DNA of 64,000 nucleotides from Acidobacteriota bacterium (GCA_041630155.1 JBFKLX010000002.1:3769-67768); one strand, 5' to 3'. Positions 7,720-51,170 are shown, numbered from the stretch's first letter. Numbers and translations are program-made. Notes: generated by a model not told the origin, from the sequence alone.

Positions 7720-7892
7720 CGCGCCAGATAGTGTAGCGGAAAGATCCGCCCGCTCAACGCCCCGGTGCCTGGCGGGATGGCGGCCCGATGGGGACAGGGC
7801 AAGTTCAGCACTGGCCGGCTGACGGTTCGCAGGCGGCCTTGTGAGGGGAAGTTCCGGCCAGGAGGCACCTCCATTGGCTATAATCACACGTC

Positions 7893-9146
7893 ATGACGGA
7901 TCGATCGAACCGGGCCTCCGACTGGCTGAGGCTCAGCGAACGCATGTCGCGCCTGCCCCCCTACCTGTTCGGTCAGATCAACAAAGTCAAGGACCGGAAG
8001 CGCCGCGACGGCATCGACATCATCGACATGGCCATGGGCAATCCCACCGACCCCACGCCCGATCCAATCGTCGAGAAGCTCTGCGAGGTCGTTCAAGATC
8101 CCCGCAGCCACCGCTATTCGGCCGCCGGCGGGCTCTACAATTTGCGCCGCGACGTGGCTCGTTTCTACCAGAAGCATTACCAGGTCCGGTTGAACCCGGA
8201 GGACGAAGTCATCGCTACGATCGGCTCGAAGGAAGGCTTCGCCCACCTCTGCCTGGCGCTGATCGGCCCCGGGGACACCGCCATGGTCCCGGCTCCCTCC
8301 TACCCCATCCACAGCTACGGTGTGGTGCTGGCGGGGGGGAGCTACCTGAGCATTCCGATTGCCGACGATGAGGCCTTCCTGCGCGCCGTCGACCAAACCT
8401 GCCGCACCTACTTTCCCCGGCCCAAGGTCCTGTTCCTCAATTACCCGCACAACCCTACGGCCCGGACTGTCTCTCTGGACTTCTTCGAAGAGGTCGTCGC
8501 CCTGGCTCGCCGCCACGAGCTGATCGTGGTACACGACTTCGCTTACGGAGGCCTGGGCTTCGACGGCTATCATCCGCCCAGCTTCCTGCAGGCTCGGGGA
8601 GCCAATCAAGTCGGAGTCGAGTTCACCACCATGTCGAAGACCTTCAACATGGCCGGCTGGCGGATCGGCTTTTGCAGCGGCAACCGCACCGTAATTGACG
8701 GTCTGTCCCGCATCAAGGGCTACTACGACTACGGGATCTTCCAGGCCATCCAGATCGCCTCCATCATCGGGCTGCGCGGTTACGGACGCATCTCCAAACG
8801 GCAGTCCAAGCTCTACCAGGAACGCCGCGACGTGCTGGTGCAGCGGCTGCGGCAGGCGGGCTGGGACAACTTCCAGGAACCGCGGGCCGGGATGTTCGTC
8901 TGGGCGGGCATCCCTGCCGGACTGGAACACCTCGGCTCCATGCAGTTCGCTCAGCAGCTGATGGAGGAGGCTGAAGTGGCCGTAGCCCCCGGGATCGGCT
9001 TCGGGCCGGAGGGAGAAGGCTACGTGCGGATGGCGCTGATCGAAAATCGCCAGCGGATTCGCCAGGCCGCCCGCCAGATCCATCGAACGCTCAACCGGTG
9101 GCGGCAGTCCGGGGAGTCCAACGTCGAGAAGCTGAAAACCCGGTAG
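7893..9146 (+). CDS. alaC: Class I/II PLP-dependent aminotransferase, closest in pattern to glutamate-pyruvate aminotransferase AlaC/YfdZ
   Basis: Collinear with E. coli AlaC motifs: 'RLPPYLF', 'MGNP...P..IVEKLC', 'IGSKEG.AHL', 'PSYPIH', 'TMSKTFNMAGWRIGF', 'RIKGYYDYG', 'ALIEN..RIRQA'. Confidence 0.8.
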   Translation: MTDRSNRASDWLRLSERMSRLPPYLFGQINKVKDRKRRDGIDIIDMAMGNPTDPTPDPIVEKLCEVVQDPRSHRYSAAGGLYNLRRDVARFYQKHYQVRLNPEDEVIATIGSKEGFAHLCLALIGPGDTAMVPAPSYPIHSYGVVLAGGSYLSIPIADDEAFLRAVDQTCRTYFPRPKVLFLNYPHNPTARTVSLDFFEEVVALARRHELIVVHDFAYGGLGFDGYHPPSFLQARGANQVGVEFTTMSKTFNMAGWRIGFCSGNRTVIDGLSRIKGYYDYGIFQAIQIASIIGLRGYGRISKRQSKLYQERRDVLVQRLRQAGWDNFQEPRAGMFVWAGIPAGLEHLGSMQFAQQLMEEAEVAVAPGIGFGPEGEGYVRMALIENRQRIRQAARQIHRTLNRWRQSGESNVEKLKTR

Positions 9147-38794: not shown

Positions 38795-39705
38795 GTCAGG
38801 TCCATTTCCCGTTTCCCGAAGAAGAACTCCTCAGCACGGGGCACCTGGGTTGCCAGGGCTGCGGCGCCGCTCTGGCCATGCGCCACGTGCTCAAAGGCCT
38901 GGGCGAGAAGACCGTCGTGGTAATCCCGGCTTGTTGCTGGTCAATCATCGCGGGCCCCTTCCCCTATTCGGCCCTCCGCGTCCCCGTGTTGCACACGGCT
39001 TTCGAGACAGCAGCCGCGTCGGCTTGCGGGGTGCGGGCCGCGCTGGACTGCAAGGGGGACCGCGAGACCACGGTCATGGCTTGGGCGGGAGACGGCGGGA
39101 CCTTCGACATCGGACTTCAGGCACTTTCCGGAGCCGCCGAGCGGAACGAGAACATCCTTTACGTGTGCTACGACAACGAGGCCTACATGAACACGGGTGT
39201 CCAAAGCAGCTCGGCAACCCCCTGGGGCGCCTGGACTACCACGACTCCCGATTACAAGAAACAGTCCAAGAAGGACATCATGCGGATCATGGCGGCTCAC
39301 GGGATCCCCTACGCCGCAACCGCATCCGTGGCTCACCCGGATGACCTGGTGCGGAAAGTGCAAAGCGCCCGGGACATCGAAGGGATGCGTTTCCTGCACG
39401 TGCTGGCGCCCTGCCCACCGGGCTGGAAGATCCCCTCCGAGCTCGCGATCAAGCTGGCCCGTCTGGCCGTCCAGACACGGATGTTTCCCCTCTTCGAAAT
39501 CGAAGACGGCCTGCGCTGCCGGCTCAGCCCGGTGGCCGACCCGCAACCGCTCGAAGAGTACCTGCGCCTGCAGGGCCGCTTCAGCCATCTGAGCGAGCGG
39601 GACGTCCAGCACCTGCAACGGATGGTGGACGAGCGCTGGGAGCAGCTCGAGAACTGGGCGGCACGCGAGCCCGTCTCGACGCCGGCCGTGCCGGCGAAGT
39701 CGTAA
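38791..39705 (+). CDS. porB: 2-oxoacid:ferredoxin oxidoreductase beta subunit (TPP-binding)
   Basis: 'CQGCG' motif. 'GDGG.FDIG...N' is a TPP-binding GDG...N motif. 'VCYDNEAYMNTG'. ATGA overlap with porA. Confidence 0.85.
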   Translation: MSQVHFPFPEEELLSTGHLGCQGCGAALAMRHVLKGLGEKTVVVIPACCWSIIAGPFPYSALRVPVLHTAFETAAASACGVRAALDCKGDRETTVMAWAGDGGTFDIGLQALSGAAERNENILYVCYDNEAYMNTGVQSSSATPWGAWTTTTPDYKKQSKKDIMRIMAAHGIPYAATASVAHPDDLVRKVQSARDIEGMRFLHVLAPCPPGWKIPSELAIKLARLAVQTRMFPLFEIEDGLRCRLSPVADPQPLEEYLRLQGRFSHLSERDVQHLQRMVDERWEQLENWAAREPVSTPAVPAKS

Positions 39706-39920
39706 AAGCCAGCATCCCTCGCCAAACCCGCGCGCCAGCGCTCCTGGTCGACGGCCCGGCCGATCCGCGACTCTTCGCCGGCGGCCTGGCACCCCAGCCG
39801 AGGCGTTCCCATTCACCCCCTCGCCGTCCATCGCGCCCCTGCCGATCCACCGATCCCAGGCCTCCACTGCCAGCCTTCGCCATCCCCTCTCCACAGCAAC
39901 CGAGTCGCTGTCCAGAGAGG

Positions 39921-39965
39921 CTCGATTTTCACTCACGTGTCACATTAGATTCTAGAATCTAAATA
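39921..39965. repeat. AT-rich 45-bp element, copy A (ctcgattttcactcacgtgtcacattagattctagaatctaaata)
   Basis: Direct near-identical copy of the element at 40530-40573. Strongly AT-rich in a roughly 65% GC genome. Contains the -10-like sequence TAGAAT. Confidence 0.7.
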
Positions 39966-40140
39966 TCTTCATAAAATAGAACTCTTCTCCTATTAGATCC
40001 CGTACTGGACACCCGGCTGAAAGAGAATTGCCCTGTCCCCTTTCCCGTCCCCTCTCCCGCTTGTGCTCGGGGGTTCGACCCGGCGTCGGTCCGATTGTGC
40101 CCTGTCCCCAGCCGGCCATCCGCACGGGCGGATCTGTGCC

Positions 40141-40192
40141 CTGTCCCCAGGTTTTTCGCTGTCCCCAGGTTTTTCTGTCCCCAGGTTTTTCG
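40141..40192. repeat. Tandem repeat, three units of CTGTCCCCAGGTTTTT(CG)
   Basis: Three adjacent units of 18, 16 and 18 bp seen directly in the sequence. Each unit embeds the second half of the dispersed motif (TGTCCCC). Confidence 0.8.
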
Positions 40193-40529
40193 ACCCGGTT
40201 TCCAGCTGTGACCCCGGGAGGTCTGGAGGTCTGAAGGCAGACGGAGAGTGTGTGAATCCTGCCCTGTCCTCATTCTCCGTTCGTTCCCACCTCGTCCCCG
40301 TCAGCCGGCCTCGGTCCGACTTCTGCCCTGTCCCCAGCCTGTCTGCCGCCTACGTCGAGGGCCCAGACGAGGCTCAACCGTTGGCCGGCATCCTCACACA
40401 CGGTCGACTCGTTGCGATTCACAACCCACTCCCACCCTCATCGCTGCCCTACCTCTCTGACGACTCGAAGCCCACCCTCGCCACCCTCGCCACCCTCCCC
40501 ACAAACCCCGAATGGCTGCCTGACACGCG

Positions 40530-40573
40530 CTCGACTTTTACTCATTTTTCACATTAGAACCTATAATCTAAAT
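40530..40573. repeat. AT-rich 45-bp element, copy B (ctcgacttttactcatttttcacattagaacctataatctaaata)
   Basis: Direct copy of the 39921 element (about 80% identity). Contains a perfect TATAAT. Confidence 0.7.
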
Positions 40574-41373
40574 AGCCGTAAAAAAGTTATTAATCTTAGG
40601 CGCAATTCCGTTCCCTGATGGAAACGAGCTGCCACAGAGTTGTCCAGCCCCTGTCACCCGGCCCGTCCGATTCTGCCCTGTCCCCAGTCTGCCCAGCCTG
40701 GCGAGAGCCAAGGGAAATTCACGAAGCTGCTGGAATCCTGGCCCGCGCCGCCTGGCAGGCGTCACATCTGCCCTATCTCCCAAGAGCCTTCGATCGGGTT
40801 TCAGCGGTGAGCTCCTGGGGGTCTGGATGCAACGGTTGTCCTGAATCTTGCCCTGTCCCCTATGATTCCCTTCTGCGCACTCTGCCGGGGACGGAGAATC
40901 GCTGAGGCGCGGCTGCCTGGTTGGGTGATCTGACCCGTGGGGGGTGCTTATTACACTGCCTGCTGGAAGCATCACTGTTCACACACTCCGAACCCACCTC
41001 TTCAATCTGAACAGTCCCCCGCGCTCCCCTTGCGCTCTGAGGATGACCCGGGCTGGCTCGGGTGGCCGCGCCTCGAATGACTCTCTGGCACATTGGGCTG
41101 GCTGCCTCGGCTCGGCCGGAAGGCCCTTCAGCACAAGGCTTCCCGCGCTTCGCGACGCATCAAATGCGAATCGCAGGCCAATCGAGCCGCAGCAGCTCCC
41201 GGGCCGGGATCGACCGCCTTCTGCGCCGGTCATCCCCGATCCGAGGGGACTCGGCAACCGATTGGCGAGCCGACAGCGGTATAGAAGTTGCTTCGCTGTC
41301 TGCATTCGACGGATTAGAGAATCCGGTACACGCAGAATGCTTTCGAGCCGCATTTCTGGAAGGGGGTCCAGCT

Positions 41374-43071
41374 ATGACAAGGCGAACTTTACGACTCAGC
41401 TTACTGGCAATCACGATCTCCGTGCCAGCCTTCGTGCGGGCCGATGGAGACTATCGCTCGGTCGACACGGAGGGTCCTGAGAGCCGCTCTGGCCACACCC
41501 TGAGCGGAGTGTACATGTTCGGAGGTCGGAGCGACGAAGGAGACGTCTTCGATGAACTCTGGGAGTTTGGCTTTGATGGGGAGACTGGCTTTGATCCTGA
41601 ATGGAACGAAGTGCCTTTCATTGACCCCTGGCCCGCGGGGCGCTGGGGTCACGTCTCCTGGGTCTCGGACCGCTACCTTTACATTGCGGGCGGCCGCGGC
41701 GCCGACTCCCAGTTCATCCCGGACGCGTGGCGCTTCGACACCGTCGCCAGGACCTGGCAGGAGATCGAATTCTATCCAGGCCCGCACCAGGTCGCCGGAG
41801 GAGCCGCCTCACACGACAACAACGGCTACCTGTTTGCCACCGAGGACGGCGCGATCCATACGTACGACGAGGAGACCAACCAATGGGAGACGCTACTCCC
41901 CGACAGCGGGCCCACCCAGCGCTCTCATAGCACCGTGGTCCAGAATATCCCCCCCGGACCCGCCAATGGTCAGCAGCCGCTTCAGAATGGCAACTCGTCG
42001 AAAGCCTGGGTGATCGGCGGTGCCAACGCGTCTGGCATCTCGAGCGAAGTTTGGGAGTTCGACTTCGCCACTCAAAGCTGGACCCGGCGGGCCGATCTGC
42101 CCGTGGCTCTGTCCAGCCTGGCCGGAGCTTACGATGATCAGCGAGATCGAGTGCTGGTTTTTGGCGGCGTGAGCCCCGAGGGTTTCAGCCGAGCCACCTG
42201 GGAGTACGATCCCGCCACGGATTCCTGGACGCGACGTCTCGACATGCCTGAGGCCCTAGTACTGTCCGGGGCCACGGCCACTGGCGAAGGGGGAACAATC
42301 ATCTTCGGGGGCCGCAGGAGCGACCAGACCGCTTCGGGACGAACACTCGCCTATCGCTCCGGCGAGACCCTGTACATGGCTCAGTTCGGCAACGGCCAGG
42401 GGTTCACCAGCGACATCGTGTTGGCCAACCCCACCGCCGACCAGACAGCTTCGGGCACGATTTCCTTTGCCGGAAACGAAGGACTTCCCCTGGAGGTCAC
42501 GATCGTGGGGGACACTGGATCAGCGTCCGCTCATCGAATCATTCCCCTTCAGGCCGGTTCAGAGGTGGAGTTCTCCATCCCTCCGCGAGCCAGCATCACG
42601 CTGTCGACGGACGGCCAAGGCGATTTGGTCGAGGGCTCCGCACGGGTTCTCTCAAACCTCCGCCTGGGAGGAGTGATCCGCTTCAGCATCCCCGCAATCG
42701 GGATTGCGGGCGTGGGGGCGAGTCCCCCGATGGACGGTTTCATTGTCCCGGTGCGACGCCAGGCGGGAGGTATCAACACCGGTCTGGCCATCTTCAGCCG
42801 GGAAGTGAGGCCGGTCACTCTCGTGCTGACGCTCTACAGTGATGGTCAGCAGATTGCGACCACGACGATCGAAGATTTCGTGGCCCGGGCCCACCTGGCC
42901 CGCTTCATCGATGGCCTCTTTCCCGAGGTCGACACCACCGACTTCGTAGGAACAGTGGTGGTCGAAGTGATCGACGGCCAAGTCACTGCCACGGCCCTTG
43001 AGCTCGGCCGCCAGCCCGGCCAGTTCACCACTCTACCGGTGACTCCCCTGGAGCCGAGCCCCAGTTCGTGA
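41374..43071 (+). CDS. Secreted Kelch-repeat (galactose-oxidase-like beta-propeller) protein with a C-terminal beta-rich domain
   Basis: Signal peptide 'MTRRTLRLSLLAITISVPAFVRA'. Repeated 'GG...W.FD/YD....W' Kelch blades. The start is placed at residue 105 of the track ORF. Confidence 0.7.
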   Translation: MTRRTLRLSLLAITISVPAFVRADGDYRSVDTEGPESRSGHTLSGVYMFGGRSDEGDVFDELWEFGFDGETGFDPEWNEVPFIDPWPAGRWGHVSWVSDRYLYIAGGRGADSQFIPDAWRFDTVARTWQEIEFYPGPHQVAGGAASHDNNGYLFATEDGAIHTYDEETNQWETLLPDSGPTQRSHSTVVQNIPPGPANGQQPLQNGNSSKAWVIGGANASGISSEVWEFDFATQSWTRRADLPVALSSLAGAYDDQRDRVLVFGGVSPEGFSRATWEYDPATDSWTRRLDMPEALVLSGATATGEGGTIIFGGRRSDQTASGRTLAYRSGETLYMAQFGNGQGFTSDIVLANPTADQTASGTISFAGNEGLPLEVTIVGDTGSASAHRIIPLQAGSEVEFSIPPRASITLSTDGQGDLVEGSARVLSNLRLGGVIRFSIPAIGIAGVGASPPMDGFIVPVRRQAGGINTGLAIFSREVRPVTLVLTLYSDGQQIATTTIEDFVARAHLARFIDGLFPEVDTTDFVGTVVVEVIDGQVTATALELGRQPGQFTTLPVTPLEPSPSS

Positions 43072-43145: not shown

Positions 43146-43231
43146 TGCCCTGTCCTCACTCCCGAGAGTGCCCTGTCCCTGTCTCCAACTAGACTCCCAA
43201 CTAGAAGGTCGATGAAGTTTGCCCTGTCCCC
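43146..43231 (+). repeat. Second cluster of the TGCCCTGTCC[CT]C motif, three copies
   Basis: Copies at about 43146, 43169 and 43220. They lie between the convergent Kelch gene and the Cys-rich protein gene. One further copy sits at 51110-51121. Confidence 0.7.
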
Positions 43232-43362
43232 AAAAGATAGTCCCCAAAAGATAAAGAGAAGAGAGAACGAAATCTGGAGTGAGCTTCCTCCCAGGGCAGG
43301 GGTATTCTCTCTCGCGCGAGTCTGAGGAATGGACTGGGTTCTTCGTGAGAGTGTTCAATTCA

Positions 43363-44698: not shown

Positions 44699-44868
44699 GG
44701 CAACACTCTATCACCCGGGAACCGAAGCTTTACGGACGGCAGATTCTCGAGACTCCACGGATCGAAAGTGCCGCGAAGTGCCAGTCGATTGAAGACCTGG
44801 TTGGGGACCGGGCAAATTGCGAATTGCGGACCCGATCAGGGGCTTGGATCGATGCTGGCGGGCCGATC

Positions 44869-49147: not shown

Positions 49148-50922
49148 CGGCTCCCTGGGAAGAGAAAGACCGCAGCGGCTACGATTCCCACCTGGCACGC
49201 AGGCTGTTCGGCTACCTGGCTCCCTACCGAAAGGTCGTGGCCACGGCCGTGGTGCTGCTGCTGGGATTGTCGGCGGTTCGCCTGGCTGGCCCCTATCTCA
49301 CCAAGGTCGCCATCGACGGACCCATCCGCAACGAGGATCCGCAGGGATTGCTCTACATCACCTTGCTGTTTCTGCTGCTCCTGATCGCCCAGTTCGGACT
49401 CGGTTATCTCCAGACGTACTGGACCAACTGGATCGGGCAGCAGGTCATGTCCGACCTGCGCCGCCAGCTTTTCGGGCACCTGCAGAAACAGGACGCGGCC
49501 TTCTTCGACCGCACGCCGGCCGGCCGCATCATCACGCGCATCACCAATGATGTCGACGTCATGAACGACTTGTTCACGTCCGGCGTAGTGAGCGTCTTCG
49601 GAGACGCCTTCTCGCTGCTCGGAATCGTTGTGATCATGCTCCTGATGAACTGGAAGCTGGCCCTGGTCTGCTTTTCAGTGATTCCTTTGCTCTTCCTGCT
49701 CACGCTCTGGTTCAAGCTGCGGGTGCGCGACAGCTACCGCCGCGTTCGGGGGGCCGTAGCCGCCATCAACGGCTTCCTGCAGGAGAGCTTCACCGGCATG
49801 GCGGTCACCCAGATGTTCGTTCAGGAGGGGCGTAAGTTCGGAGAGTTCGAAAAGCACAACCGCCGGCACATGCAGGCCAACCTCGACTCCATCTTCTACT
49901 ATGCCGTCTTCTACCCCGCCGTCAACCTGGTGGGGGCCCTGGCGATCGCCCTGATTCTCTGGGCGGGCGGCATCCAGGTCCTGGACGCCGGGCTCACCCT
50001 GGGAGCAGTCGTAGCCTTCATTCAGTATTCGGAACGCTTCTACAAACCGATCAGCGACTTGAGCGAAAAGGTCAACATCCTGCAGAGCGCCATGGCCAGC
50101 GCAGAACGCATCTTCGGACTCCTGGACACGGGACCGACCATTCGACCGCCCCAGCGGCCGCACCGTGCCCCCGTGCAGGGCCAGATCCATTTCGATCGAG
50201 TCAGCTTCTGGTATCGGGAAGGGACGCCGGTGCTGCACGGAGTCGATTTGAGAGTCGAGCCGGGAGAGAAAGTCGCCATCGTGGGGGCAACCGGTTCGGG
50301 AAAGACGACGCTGATCAACCTCCTGGGACGGCTCTACGACGTCTGTGAAGGGGCCGTTCGGGTCGACGGGACGGACCTCCGACAGTGGGAACCGGAGGCC
50401 TTGCGGCAATCGATCGCGGTCGTACTACAGGACGTTTTTCTGTTCAACGGCAGCGTCGGGGACAACATCCGGCTCTGGAGCGGGCGGGTCACGGATTCAG
50501 CGGCTCAACAGGCGGCTCGCCGGGTGGCGGCTGACCGCTTCATCCAGCGGCTGCCCGCTGCTTACCAGTCCCCCGTGCGGGAACGGGGCTCGGCGCTCTC
50601 GGTGGGACAGCGACAGCTCCTGGCGTTCGCCCGTGCGCTGGCCCACGATCCCCGAATTCTGGTCCTGGACGAGGCGACCTCGTCGGTGGACACGGAAACC
50701 GAACAGCTCATTCAGAAGGCGCTGGCAGAGCTCATGGAGGGGCGCACCGCCCTGATCATCGCCCACCGTCTGTCGACCATCCAGCATTGCGATCGGATCG
50801 TCGTGCTTCACCGGGGCGAAATTCGGGAGGAAGGCACCCATCAGCAGCTGCTGCGGCAGCGCGGCATCTACTTCAAACTCTACCAGTTGCAGTACAAGGA
50901 CCAACTGGTCGACGCCGTCTGA
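49144..50922 (+). CDS. ABC transporter permease/ATP-binding fusion (type I exporter), half 2
   Basis: Walker A 'GATGSGKTT', signature 'LSVGQRQL' and Walker B 'ILVLDEATS'. Overlaps the upstream partner, so the two likely form a heterodimeric exporter. Confidence 0.9.
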   Translation: MTAPWEEKDRSGYDSHLARRLFGYLAPYRKVVATAVVLLLGLSAVRLAGPYLTKVAIDGPIRNEDPQGLLYITLLFLLLLIAQFGLGYLQTYWTNWIGQQVMSDLRRQLFGHLQKQDAAFFDRTPAGRIITRITNDVDVMNDLFTSGVVSVFGDAFSLLGIVVIMLLMNWKLALVCFSVIPLLFLLTLWFKLRVRDSYRRVRGAVAAINGFLQESFTGMAVTQMFVQEGRKFGEFEKHNRRHMQANLDSIFYYAVFYPAVNLVGALAIALILWAGGIQVLDAGLTLGAVVAFIQYSERFYKPISDLSEKVNILQSAMASAERIFGLLDTGPTIRPPQRPHRAPVQGQIHFDRVSFWYREGTPVLHGVDLRVEPGEKVAIVGATGSGKTTLINLLGRLYDVCEGAVRVDGTDLRQWEPEALRQSIAVVLQDVFLFNGSVGDNIRLWSGRVTDSAAQQAARRVAADRFIQRLPAAYQSPVRERGSALSVGQRQLLAFARALAHDPRILVLDEATSSVDTETEQLIQKALAELMEGRTALIIAHRLSTIQHCDRIVVLHRGEIREEGTHQQLLRQRGIYFKLYQLQYKDQLVDAV

Positions 50923-51170
50923 CCCACCGGCTGAATGGGCTCAGGCTGCTGTGCCCGCTGGTCCTGGTGTTCCGATGGGTCGATCATCTTTCGCGGAGTC
51001 GCCACTCCGGATCCTGTCGATCCTGTGATCCCTCCCGAGACCCGGATTCGATTCCGGAGACAGGACAGGATCCTCCGAGCCTCGGCGGGGAAACCCGGTC
51101 GAGGGAACTTGCCCTGTCCCCCAAAATGGGGCACCAAGCCCCGCGTTGCTGCACGGGGCGGGGGCGGATG

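What the first reader, a model, noticed from the sequence alone, without database searches (positions are those of the whole stretch)
39921..40573. Two copies of a 45-bp AT-rich promoter-like element spaced about 610 bp apart
'ctcgattttcactcacgtgtcacattagattctagaatctaaata' and 'ctcgacttttactcatttttcacattagaacctataatctaaata' are direct repeats. Each carries a -10-like hexamer (TAGAAT in one, TATAAT in the other), and each is followed by a GC-rich body containing the TGCCCTGTCCCC motifs. The arrangement looks like two tandem transcription units, candidate sRNA genes, or duplicated att-like ends of a small element.
Basis: seen in the sequence. Interest (0 to 1): 0.55.

Follow-up and report, generated by a model that had tools for sequence, protein, structure and literature searches.

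The report
Duplicated noncoding spacer with AT-rich cores
The two AT-rich 45-mers are real and are the best-conserved part of an old tandem duplication of a ~600-bp noncoding spacer between two ordinary genes in an uncultured bacterium; they most likely act as promoter/operator sites, but nothing marks them as a new kind of element.

Summary
A 57-nt direct repeat (39920-39976 and 40529-40585, 609 bp apart) occurs only twice in the window, and no true copy was found in the public collections. The two copies are the most AT-rich 60-mers in the 64 kb (GC 0.23-0.27; next lowest 0.38).

They are not the ends of an element. They lie inside two tandem units (about 39709-40315 and 40316-40905), each made of a C-rich tail, an AT-rich head and a body. 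The array starts just after the stop codon of a 2-oxoacid:ferredoxin oxidoreductase beta gene and ends about 470 bp before a secreted Kelch-repeat protein gene.

The units are about 52-59% identical, but the 46-nt core is 83% identical (19 of 5000 permutations reach this). It carries a conserved dyad, TTAGA-N8-TCTAA, overlapping TAGAAT/TATAAT on the + strand.

I found no coding potential, Rfam match, stable RNA fold, intrinsic terminator, mobile-element signature, oriC or dif feature. TGCCCTGTCCCC is a dispersed intergenic motif, usually in sense orientation downstream of genes.

Best reading: a duplicated terminator-then-promoter/operator module. This is inferred, not shown. The four other same-species assemblies covering copy 1, and the one covering copy 2, carry them unchanged; nothing closer than 74% protein identity was available. 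Interest is low to moderate.

The parts
39709..40315 (+). Tandem unit 1 (C-rich tail 39716-39916, AT-rich head 39920-40010, body 40078-40290). It begins a few bases after the stop codon of the oxidoreductase beta gene (39703-39705).
   Evidence: MAFFT alignment of the two units. Local alignments against dinucleotide shuffles: tails score 110 vs 54.8+-6.6, bodies 108 vs 43.7+-7.5, 0 of 200 shuffles reach either.
40316..40905 (+). Tandem unit 2 (tail 40326-40523, head 40529-40615, body 40656-40880). The stretch to its right (40906-41373) is not significantly repeated.
   Evidence: The tail-2 comparisons are not significant (27/200 and 149/200 shuffles).
39920..39976 (+). AT-rich repeat copy 1. 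The conserved 46-nt core is 39920-39965.
   Evidence: The core is 38/46 identical to copy 2 against 52% for the rest of the unit; binomial 1.3e-5; 19 of 5000 column permutations reach this in any window. It is unchanged in the four same-species assemblies that cover it (L001, L008, L009, L010).
40529..40585 (+). AT-rich repeat copy 2. The conserved core is 40529-40574.
   Evidence: It is identical in the one other assembly that covers it (L016).
39945..39962 (.). Perfect 18-bp palindrome TTAGATTCTAGAATCTAA, a candidate binding site for a dimeric protein.
   Evidence: Read from the sequence. TTAGA-N8-TCTAA occurs only at the two copies in the window (0.07 expected).
40554..40571 (.). Matching dyad in copy 2, TTAGAACCTATAATCTAA. 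The outer half-sites are kept and the central 8 bp differ at 3 positions.
39928..39958 (+). Promoter-like arrangement TTCACT-19 bp-TAGAAT.
   Evidence: Rank 18 of about 128,000 positions in my log-odds scan. Not reported by the consensus scan, which allows 16-18 bp spacers only.
40537..40567 (+). Promoter-like arrangement TTTACT-19 bp-TATAAT, at the position homologous to the one in copy 1.
   Evidence: Rank 4. Not reported.
39801..39916 (+). C-rich, G-poor tract directly before head 1 (C/G up to 3.5 in 80 nt).
40384..40574 (+). Strongest C-rich, G-poor tract of the whole window (C/G up to 5.2), directly before and running into head 2. It contains the 9-nt tandem repeat CCACCCTCG x3.4 (40472-40502).
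40029..40860 (+). Eight copies of the dispersed motif TGCCCTGTCCCC, all on the + strand, starting at 40029, 40098, 40137, 40260, 40324, 40674, 40769 (2 mismatches) and 40849. Three copies sit in a roughly 35-nt sub-repeat (40080-40113, 40305-40339, 40665-40687).
40141..40192 (+). Tandem array CTGTCCCCAGGTTTTTCG x3, grown from the 3' end of a motif copy. It is present in unit 1 only.

Best explanation
**Shown**
- The 1.67-kb spacer between the oxidoreductase operon (stop codon ends at 39705, + strand) and the Kelch-repeat gene (ATG at 41374, + strand) is noncoding.
- Its first 1.2 kb is an old tandem duplication of a roughly 600-bp unit.
- Each unit has a very C-rich, G-poor tail, an AT-rich head of about 100 bp, and a G+C-rich body.
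- The 46-nt core of the head is much better conserved than the rest of the unit.
- The core holds a dyad, TTAGA-N8-TCTAA, overlapping a -10-like hexamer on the + strand.

**Inferred**
- Each unit is a stop-and-restart module.
- Transcripts reading out of the upstream operon meet an unstructured C-rich tract of the kind Rho factor uses to terminate transcription.
- The AT-rich head is a sigma-70-type promoter whose -10 region is covered by the binding site of a dimeric regulator.
- That promoter fires rightward, in the direction of the Kelch gene.
- The duplication doubled the module, and selection kept the protein-binding core in both copies while the rest drifted.
- The TGCCCTGTCCCC copies in the bodies belong to a genome-wide intergenic motif. 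They are not a specific payload of these units.
For: **Duplication**
- tails score 110 against 54.8+-6.6 for shuffles, and bodies 108 against 43.7+-7.5.
- One search gives the unit alignment.

**Constraint on the core**
- 38/46 identical against 52% elsewhere; 19 of 5000 permutations reach this.
- The identity profile peaks at 0.80 over 39921-39960.
- Across same-species assemblies, only one 5-nt indel and one SNP occur in 39706-40500, and neither is in the core. Copy 2 is identical in L016.

**Unusual composition**
- The two heads are the lowest-GC 60-mers of the 64 kb.

**Dyad**
- It is unique to the two copies.
- All differences between the two dyads fall in the central 8 bp.

**Direction**
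- The only promoter-like arrangement at homologous positions in both heads is on the + strand, at ranks 4 and 18.

**Terminator-like tails**
- The two highest C/G tracts on the + strand of the spacer lie directly before the heads. One (C/G up to 5.2) is the highest in the window; the other (3.5) ties with one tract elsewhere for second.
- Unit 1 RNA folds less well than shuffles (z +2.15).
- No intrinsic terminator follows the operon.

**Noncoding**
- Five ORFs in the region have no Pfam match.
- The longest ORF has no homologue among 5.8 billion proteins.
- The motif falls in different reading frames.
Against: - No expression data exist, so no transcription start or end is known.
- The -35-like hexamers are weak and the spacer is 19 bp. 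The consensus scan reports no promoter.
- My log-odds ranks are inflated, because any AT-rich stretch scores well against a 64% G+C background.
- Ordinary promoters in this window are not AT islands, so the extreme composition is more than a promoter needs.
- Head 2 lies 800 bp from the Kelch start codon. That would imply a very long leader or a separate noncoding transcript.
- No regulator gene lies next to the locus.
- The Rho-type terminator reading rests on base composition alone.
- Two sequences are too few to separate purifying selection from gene conversion.
Confidence: 0.4

Rival explanations
1. The heads bind a protein but are not promoters. They would be sites for a nucleoid-associated protein, a silencer of AT-rich DNA, a site-specific recombinase or a similar factor, or the release zone of tandem Rho-dependent terminators that insulate the Kelch gene from the strongly expressed operon upstream.
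For: - The core is conserved, with half-sites kept and a variable centre.
- The AT content is extreme, beyond that of other intergenic regions.
- The highest C/G tracts of the window directly precede both heads.
- No consensus promoter and no intrinsic terminator were found.
Against: - No dif-like sequence at up to 8 of 28 mismatches.
- No recombinase gene among the neighbours scanned.
- Rho release zones are not known to need a conserved 46-nt sequence (general knowledge).
- A perfect TATAAT and a TAGAAT at homologous positions is what a promoter would look like.
Confidence: 0.2
2. Two tandem small or long noncoding RNA genes. Each head is the promoter of an independent C-rich transcript whose repeated UGCCCUGUCCCC motifs act in trans, for example by pairing with G-rich ribosome-binding sites or by titrating an RNA-binding protein.
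For: - A promoter-like head is followed by 3-5 motif copies in each unit, all on the + strand.
- Tandem duplicated sRNA genes are common in bacteria (general knowledge).
- The bodies share conserved islands, for example 40189-40268 against 40789-40861 at about 65%.
Against: - No Rfam family matches.
- No fold is better than shuffles on either strand.
- The consensus folds of the conserved islands are weak (-9.8 and -4.85 kcal/mol).
- No terminator is present.
- The bodies are far less conserved than the heads, the reverse of what is usual for duplicated sRNA genes.
- The motif also occurs at four other intergenic sites without any head.
Confidence: 0.15
3. The AT-rich islands are relics of foreign or mobile DNA, such as a small non-autonomous element or an att-type scar. 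The relic was already in the spacer when it duplicated, and the repeats have no present function.
For: - The composition is far from that of the host genome.
- There are only two copies and both are local.
- Copy 1 contains a perfect 18-bp palindrome.
Against: - There are no terminal inverted repeats, and the flanking direct repeats are not above chance (102/1000 and 562/1000 shuffles).
- No similarity to plasmids or phages.
- No true match in the genome, metagenome or viral collections; the hits are chance matches in AT-rich genomes.
- The core is conserved well above the rest of the unit, which a dead relic would not be.
Confidence: 0.12
4. A neutral tandem duplication with no functional element. 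The higher identity of the AT-rich core would be an alignment or mutation-bias effect, or the result of local gene conversion.
For: - Only two sequences can be compared.
- AT-rich anchors in G+C-rich sequence align easily.
- The locus carries several slippage products (12-, 16-, 8- and 9-nt tandem arrays), so it is structurally unstable.
Against: - The permutation test gives 19/5000.
- Differences within the dyad are confined to its centre, while both half-sites and the -10-like hexamer are kept.
- An AT island would be expected to erode towards the genomic 64% G+C if unconstrained (inference).
Confidence: 0.13

Closest known systems
Tandemly duplicated intergenic promoter/operator regions (sigma-70 promoter with a repressor dyad over the -10 region)
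   Same: - An AT-rich segment carries TAGAAT/TATAAT.
- A dyad with conserved half-sites overlaps the hexamer.
- The orientation is the same as that of the downstream gene.
- The core is more conserved than its surroundings.
   Different: - The -35 is weak and the spacer is 19 bp.
- The distance to the next start codon is 800 and 1400 bp.
- The AT content is far beyond that of other promoters in the window.
- No regulator gene is nearby, and no transcription data exist.
Rho-dependent terminators (C-rich, G-poor, unstructured rut region followed by a release zone)
   Same: - The tracts directly before each head have the highest C/G ratios of the window.
- They lie downstream of an operon that has no intrinsic terminator.
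- Unit 1 RNA is predicted to be less folded than shuffled sequence.
   Different: - Known rut sites are defined by composition, not by a conserved sequence.
- The conserved part here is the AT-rich head, not the C-rich tract.
- Nothing here was tested beyond composition.
Tandem sRNA gene pairs and arrays (for example PrrF1/PrrF2, OmrA/OmrB, the NsiR1 array) and the long direct repeats that carry type I toxin-antitoxin genes in E. coli
   Same: - Direct repeats of a few hundred bp lie in an intergenic region.
- Each repeat has its own promoter-like head.
   Different: - No terminator, no stable or conserved fold, and no small hydrophobic ORF shared by the units.
- The transcribed part is the least conserved part.
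REP-type dispersed intergenic repeats (for the TGCCCTGTCCCC motif only)
   Same: - A short motif is strongly over-represented (13 against 0.86 expected).
- It is confined to intergenic DNA.
- It usually lies just downstream of genes, in sense orientation, and often in clusters.
   Different: - It is not a palindrome and no hairpin is evident.
- The copies are direct rather than alternating in orientation.
- At 12 nt it is shorter than the typical 35 nt or so.

Membership tests
Sigma-70-type promoter | -35 and -10 hexamers close to TTGACA/TATAAT, separated by 16-18 bp | tested here: inconclusive
   The -10-like hexamers match at 5/6 and 6/6. The best -35-like hexamers match at 4/6 with a 19-bp spacer. 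The consensus scan finds none.
Sigma-70-type promoter | A transcription start about 7 nt downstream of the -10 hexamer | not testable with these tools
   No RNA data are available for this organism.
Known structured RNA families (Rfam 15) | A match to a covariance model | tested here: not met
   No match at the gathering threshold over the whole window. Only one chance match (E 7.2) at the permissive threshold over 39600-41500.
sRNA gene | A discrete transcript ending at an intrinsic terminator, with a stable or conserved fold | tested here: not met
   No terminator-like site. Fold z-scores range from +0.13 to +2.15. Consensus folds are weak. Whether a transcript exists could not be tested.
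Mobile element ends / att sites | Repeats mark the boundaries of an element, with flanks outside the repeats unrelated | tested here: not met
   The left flanks (about 200 nt) and right flanks (about 300 nt) of the two copies are homologous.
Mobile element ends / att sites | Target-site duplication or terminal inverted repeats, and a recombinase or transposase nearby | tested here: not met
   Flanking repeats are not above chance. Neighbouring genes are metabolic or secreted proteins. Only ten ORFs were scanned.
Chromosomal origin (oriC) or unwinding element | DnaA boxes next to the AT-rich region and a switch of GC skew | tested here: not met
   No DnaA box at up to 1 mismatch within the spacer. 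GC skew stays negative on both sides.
dif / Xer recombination site | A 28-bp site resembling the E. coli or B. subtilis dif sequence | tested here: not met
   No match at up to 8 mismatches anywhere in the window. There is no skew switch.
CRISPR array with AT-rich leader | Repeats of 23-47 nt at regular spacing | tested here: not met
   The motif copies are spaced 39, 123, 64, 350, 95 and 80 nt apart. The tandem arrays found have periods of 8-16 nt.
Protein-coding gene or pseudogene pair | An ORF with homologues or a domain, in a frame conserved between the units | tested here: not met
   No Pfam match for five ORFs. No homologue for the 164-codon ORF. The motif lies in different frames. There is no similarity to the flanking coding regions.
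Rho-dependent terminator | A C-rich, G-poor, poorly structured tract of about 80 nt downstream of a gene | tested here: met
   C/G reaches 3.5 (39801-39916) and 5.2 (40384-40574). The second is the highest value in the window. The z-score is +2.15 for unit 1 RNA. This feature is necessary but not sufficient.
Rho-dependent terminator | Rho-dependent release of transcripts | not testable with these tools
   This needs in vivo or in vitro transcription assays, with and without a Rho inhibitor.

The most novel reading that the evidence does not exclude
Each unit would be an independent gene for an unstructured, C-rich regulatory RNA. It would be driven by a tightly controlled AT-rich promoter, and its repeated UGCCCUGUCCCC motifs would sequester a G-rich partner: ribosome-binding sites of many mRNAs, or an RNA-binding protein. 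The same motif in the 3' regions of other genes would tie those mRNAs into the same network. This would be a new sponge-type RNA system in an uncultured lineage, probably Acidobacteriota.
Probability: 0.06. Interest if true: 0.6.

Novelty: new member of a known kind. Interest (0 to 1): 0.27.

Why it matters
If the reading is right, the locus is an example of how a regulatory module (terminator plus regulated promoter) is duplicated, and of selection keeping only the protein-binding core. It would also give a first candidate operator (TTAGA-N8-TCTAA) and a dispersed intergenic motif for a lineage that has no cultured relatives and no known regulatory sequences. This is useful for annotating these genomes, but it does not bear on a larger open question.

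Tried and rejected
**Other copies elsewhere**
- Pattern CACATTAGANNCTANAATCTAA gave 2 hits in 185,579 species genomes, 4 hits in JGI metagenomes and none in viral contigs.
- All six hits lie in genomes of 25-38% G+C with unrelated flanks, so they are chance matches.

**Relatives through flanking proteins**
- The oxidoreductase beta protein has same-species copies at 99% identity and then nothing above 74%.
- The Kelch protein has nothing above 40% identity over its full length.
- The distant orthologue loci L014 and L015 have different neighbours, no motif and no AT element.
- Two loci that share only the C-terminal domain (L012, L013) also lack both.
- Covariation analysis was therefore impossible.

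**Similarity searches**
- Plasmid and phage searches found nothing.
- A literature search for the motif found only unrelated primer sequences. A search for the assembly accessions found nothing.

**A third, degenerate head in front of the Kelch gene**
- The palindrome CGGATTAGAGAATCCG lies at 41310-41325.
- The collinear alignment is marginal (27/500 shuffles).
- The 12-mer match is at chance level, and nhmmer does not find it. I do not claim it.

**Insertion of the AT island with target-site duplication**
- Rejected, because the flanking repeats are not significant.

**An invertible promoter as the cause of the assembly breaks**
- Rejected. The breaks sit at the 9-nt tandem repeat, not at the head, and the flanking inverted repeat is only 5 bp.

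**oriC, dif, CRISPR, coding region**
- All rejected; see the membership table.

Full report

Yes. The repeat finder reports a two-copy family of 57 nt, 39920-39976 and 40529-40585. The copies are 77% identical and their starts are 609 nt apart.

The core TCACATTAGAwyCTAkAATCTAAATA occurs exactly twice in the 64 kb, even with 3 mismatches allowed. The expectation from shuffles is 0.00. A profile built from the two copies finds no third copy in the window.

The two elements are compositional outliers. Their 60-nt minima are GC 0.27 and 0.23, the next lowest value in the window is 0.38, and the median is 0.63.

**2. Setting**

The elements lie in a 1.67-kb gap. On the left is the last gene of a 2-oxoacid:ferredoxin oxidoreductase operon, whose beta subunit ends at 39705 on the + strand. 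On the right is a gene for a secreted Kelch-repeat protein (ATG at 41374, + strand).

The wider neighbourhood is ordinary chromosome: glycoside hydrolase, a radical-SAM menaquinone enzyme, a sugar transferase and DapA.

The gap is noncoding:
- Its ORFs have no Pfam match.
- The longest ORF has no homologue among 5.8 billion proteins.
- The translations are low-complexity, and the repeated motif falls in different frames.
- No tRNA was found and no Rfam family matches.

**3. The real architecture: a tandem duplication in a different register**

Homology between the two copies does not stop at the 45-mers.

- The 200 nt before copy 1 (39716-39916) align with the 200 nt before copy 2 (40326-40523). 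The score is 110 against 54.8+-6.6 for dinucleotide shuffles.
- The sequences after the copies (40078-40290 and 40656-40880) align with a score of 108 against 43.7+-7.5.
- None of 200 shuffles reaches either score.

The array is therefore two units, about 39709-40315 and 40316-40905. Each unit is ordered C-rich tail, AT-rich head, body. It starts a few bases after the stop codon of the upstream gene. Neither unit resembles the flanking coding sequences. The last 470 bp before the Kelch gene are not significantly repeated.

Because both flanks of each 45-mer are homologous, the 45-mers are corresponding points inside two tandem repeats. They are not the ends of an inserted element. Short direct repeats that seemed to bracket each AT island are not above chance.

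**4. The AT-rich core is the conserved part**

Over the aligned units, identity is 52% counting gaps and 59% without them. This is close to saturation for such biased sequence.

The 46-nt core is 38/46 identical. The binomial probability against the rest of the unit is 1.3e-5. Only 19 of 5000 column permutations give any 46-column window that good.

Within the core both copies keep TTAGA-N8-TCTAA, which occurs nowhere else in the window (0.07 expected). In copy 1 this is a perfect 18-bp palindrome. All three differences between the two dyads lie in the central 8 bp. Conserved half-sites with a free centre are what a dimeric DNA-binding protein would leave.

Six fragmentary assemblies of the same species (99.6-99.9% identical) were recovered. 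Between 39706 and 40500 they show only a 5-nt indel at 40257 and one SNP at 40382. Copy 2 is identical in the one assembly that covers it.

**5. Which strand, and is it a promoter?**

The consensus scan (16-18 bp spacers) finds neither a promoter nor an intrinsic terminator in 39600-41500.

I ran a looser log-odds scan over both strands of the window.
- TTTACT-19-TATAAT in head 2 ranks 4th of about 128,000 positions.
- The homologous TTCACT-19-TAGAAT in head 1 ranks 18th.
- Candidates on the minus strand are not at homologous positions in the two heads.

The ranks are flattered by the AT-richness, and a 19-bp spacer is poor. The promoter reading is therefore plausible, rightward and unproven.

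**6. What lies around the heads**

The + strand is strongly C-rich and G-poor throughout the spacer. The strongest C/G tract of the window (up to 5.2) runs from 40384 into head 2. Another (3.5) runs from 39801 to 39916, directly before head 1.

Unit 1 RNA is predicted to fold worse than shuffled sequence (z +2.15). The other three folds, which cover both strands, are indistinguishable from shuffles. Consensus folds of the conserved islands are weak.

A C-rich, G-poor, unstructured tract downstream of an operon with no intrinsic terminator matches the known composition of Rho-dependent terminators (general knowledge). That is a resemblance, not a test.

**7. The TGCCCTGTCCCC motif**

It is strongly over-represented: 13 copies at up to 1 mismatch against 0.86 expected. 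But it is not particular to these units.

All exact and one-mismatch copies are intergenic. Of the five loci that carry it, four are just downstream of a gene's stop codon and in sense orientation to that gene:
- after the oxidoreductase gene;
- after the Kelch gene (43146-43231);
- after a minus-strand radical-SAM gene (44803-44814);
- after the gene ending at 50922 (51110).

The fifth (7790, minus strand) lies upstream of a minus-strand gene.

Tandem arrays have grown from the GTCCCC end of the motif at two loci: CTGTCCCCAGGTTTTTCG x3 at 40141-40192 and GTCCCCAAAAGATA x2 at 43226-43253.

It behaves like a short REP-type dispersed repeat, or a C-rich 3'-region signal. It does not behave like cargo of the two units.

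**8. Other readings tested**

| Reading | Result |
|---|---|
| Replication origin | No DnaA box in the spacer; no skew switch |
| dif site | No match at up to 8 of 28 mismatches |
| CRISPR | Irregular spacing of repeats |
| Plasmid or phage origin | No similarity |
| Third, degenerate head before the Kelch gene (CGGATTAGAGAATCCG, 41310-41325) | Suggestive by position, not statistically supported |

**9. Limits**

The source genome is not in the searchable DNA collections. The pattern scans returned only chance hits in AT-rich genomes.

The nearest other organisms are too distant: 74% identity for a very conserved enzyme and 40% for the Kelch protein. They lack the spacer, the motif and the element.

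So neither covariation, nor conservation beyond the species, nor the genome-wide copy number of the core could be assessed. The best named protein hits point to Acidobacteriota. This placement is tentative.

**10. Verdict**

The finding is real. It is best described as an old tandem duplication of a noncoding spacer in which only an AT-rich, dyad-bearing core has been kept.

The most likely function is a regulated rightward promoter (a -10 hexamer under an operator) placed after a Rho-type C-rich tract, present twice. My confidence is 0.4.

The rivals are a protein-binding site without promoter function, two ncRNA genes, a foreign-DNA relic, and neutral drift. None is excluded.

It is a new instance of a known kind of feature in a poorly known lineage, and its interest is low to moderate.

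Noticed in passing
window 7790-7801(-), 40029-40860(+), 43146-43231(+), 44803-44814(-), 51110-51121(+): TGCCCTGTCCCC is a dispersed motif found only in intergenic DNA (13 copies at up to 1 mismatch against 0.86 expected). It is often preceded by GAwyyT-like bases. In 4 of 5 loci it lies 55-325 nt downstream of a stop codon and in sense orientation to that gene. It could be a REP-like or 3'-end signal of this lineage.
   Followed up: partly
window 40472-40502; ends of L001, L008, L009, L010; starts of L016, L011: The 9-nt tandem repeat CCACCCTCG x3.4 lies 30-90 nt upstream of head 2. Four same-species MAG contigs end at 40444-40498, one starts at 40470 and one at 40626. The repeat units differ by SNPs between assemblies (40498 and 40504). 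This suggests length or sequence heterogeneity of the repeat within populations.
   Followed up: partly
window 40141-40192 and 43226-43253: Two separate tandem arrays (period 16-18 nt x3; period 14 nt x2) both start at the GTCCCC end of a motif copy. The motif appears to seed local slippage duplications.
   Followed up: no
window 40257 (L008 and L009 against the window, L001, L010): A 5-nt insertion, CCTGC, inside a motif copy in two of the same-species assemblies. It is one of only two polymorphisms in 800 bp of spacer.
   Followed up: no
window 41310-41325: A perfect palindrome, CGGATTAGAGAATCCG, lies 49 nt upstream of the Kelch gene's ATG. Its centre resembles the core dyad of copy 1 (GATTAGAGAATC against GATTCTAGAATC). 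The match is at chance level, but the position is where the gene's own promoter or operator would lie.
   Followed up: partly
window 7879-7895: A perfect TATAAT ends 8 nt before the ATG (7893) of an aminotransferase-like gene, and no ribosome-binding site fits between them. This may be a leaderless mRNA.
   Followed up: no
window about 42370-43068 (C-terminal 40% of the Kelch protein): The C-terminal domain of about 230 residues has no Pfam match. It recurs at 35-59% identity at the end of more than 100 proteins with unrelated N-terminal parts (fibronectin type III, leucine-rich repeats, proteases, beta-helix), several of them from Acidobacteriota. It is an unannotated shared C-terminal module of secreted proteins.
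   Followed up: no
window 39801-39916 and 40384-40574: One of these tracts has the highest C/G ratio on the + strand of the 64 kb (5.2); the other (3.5) ties for second. Each lies directly upstream of an AT-rich head.
   Followed up: partly
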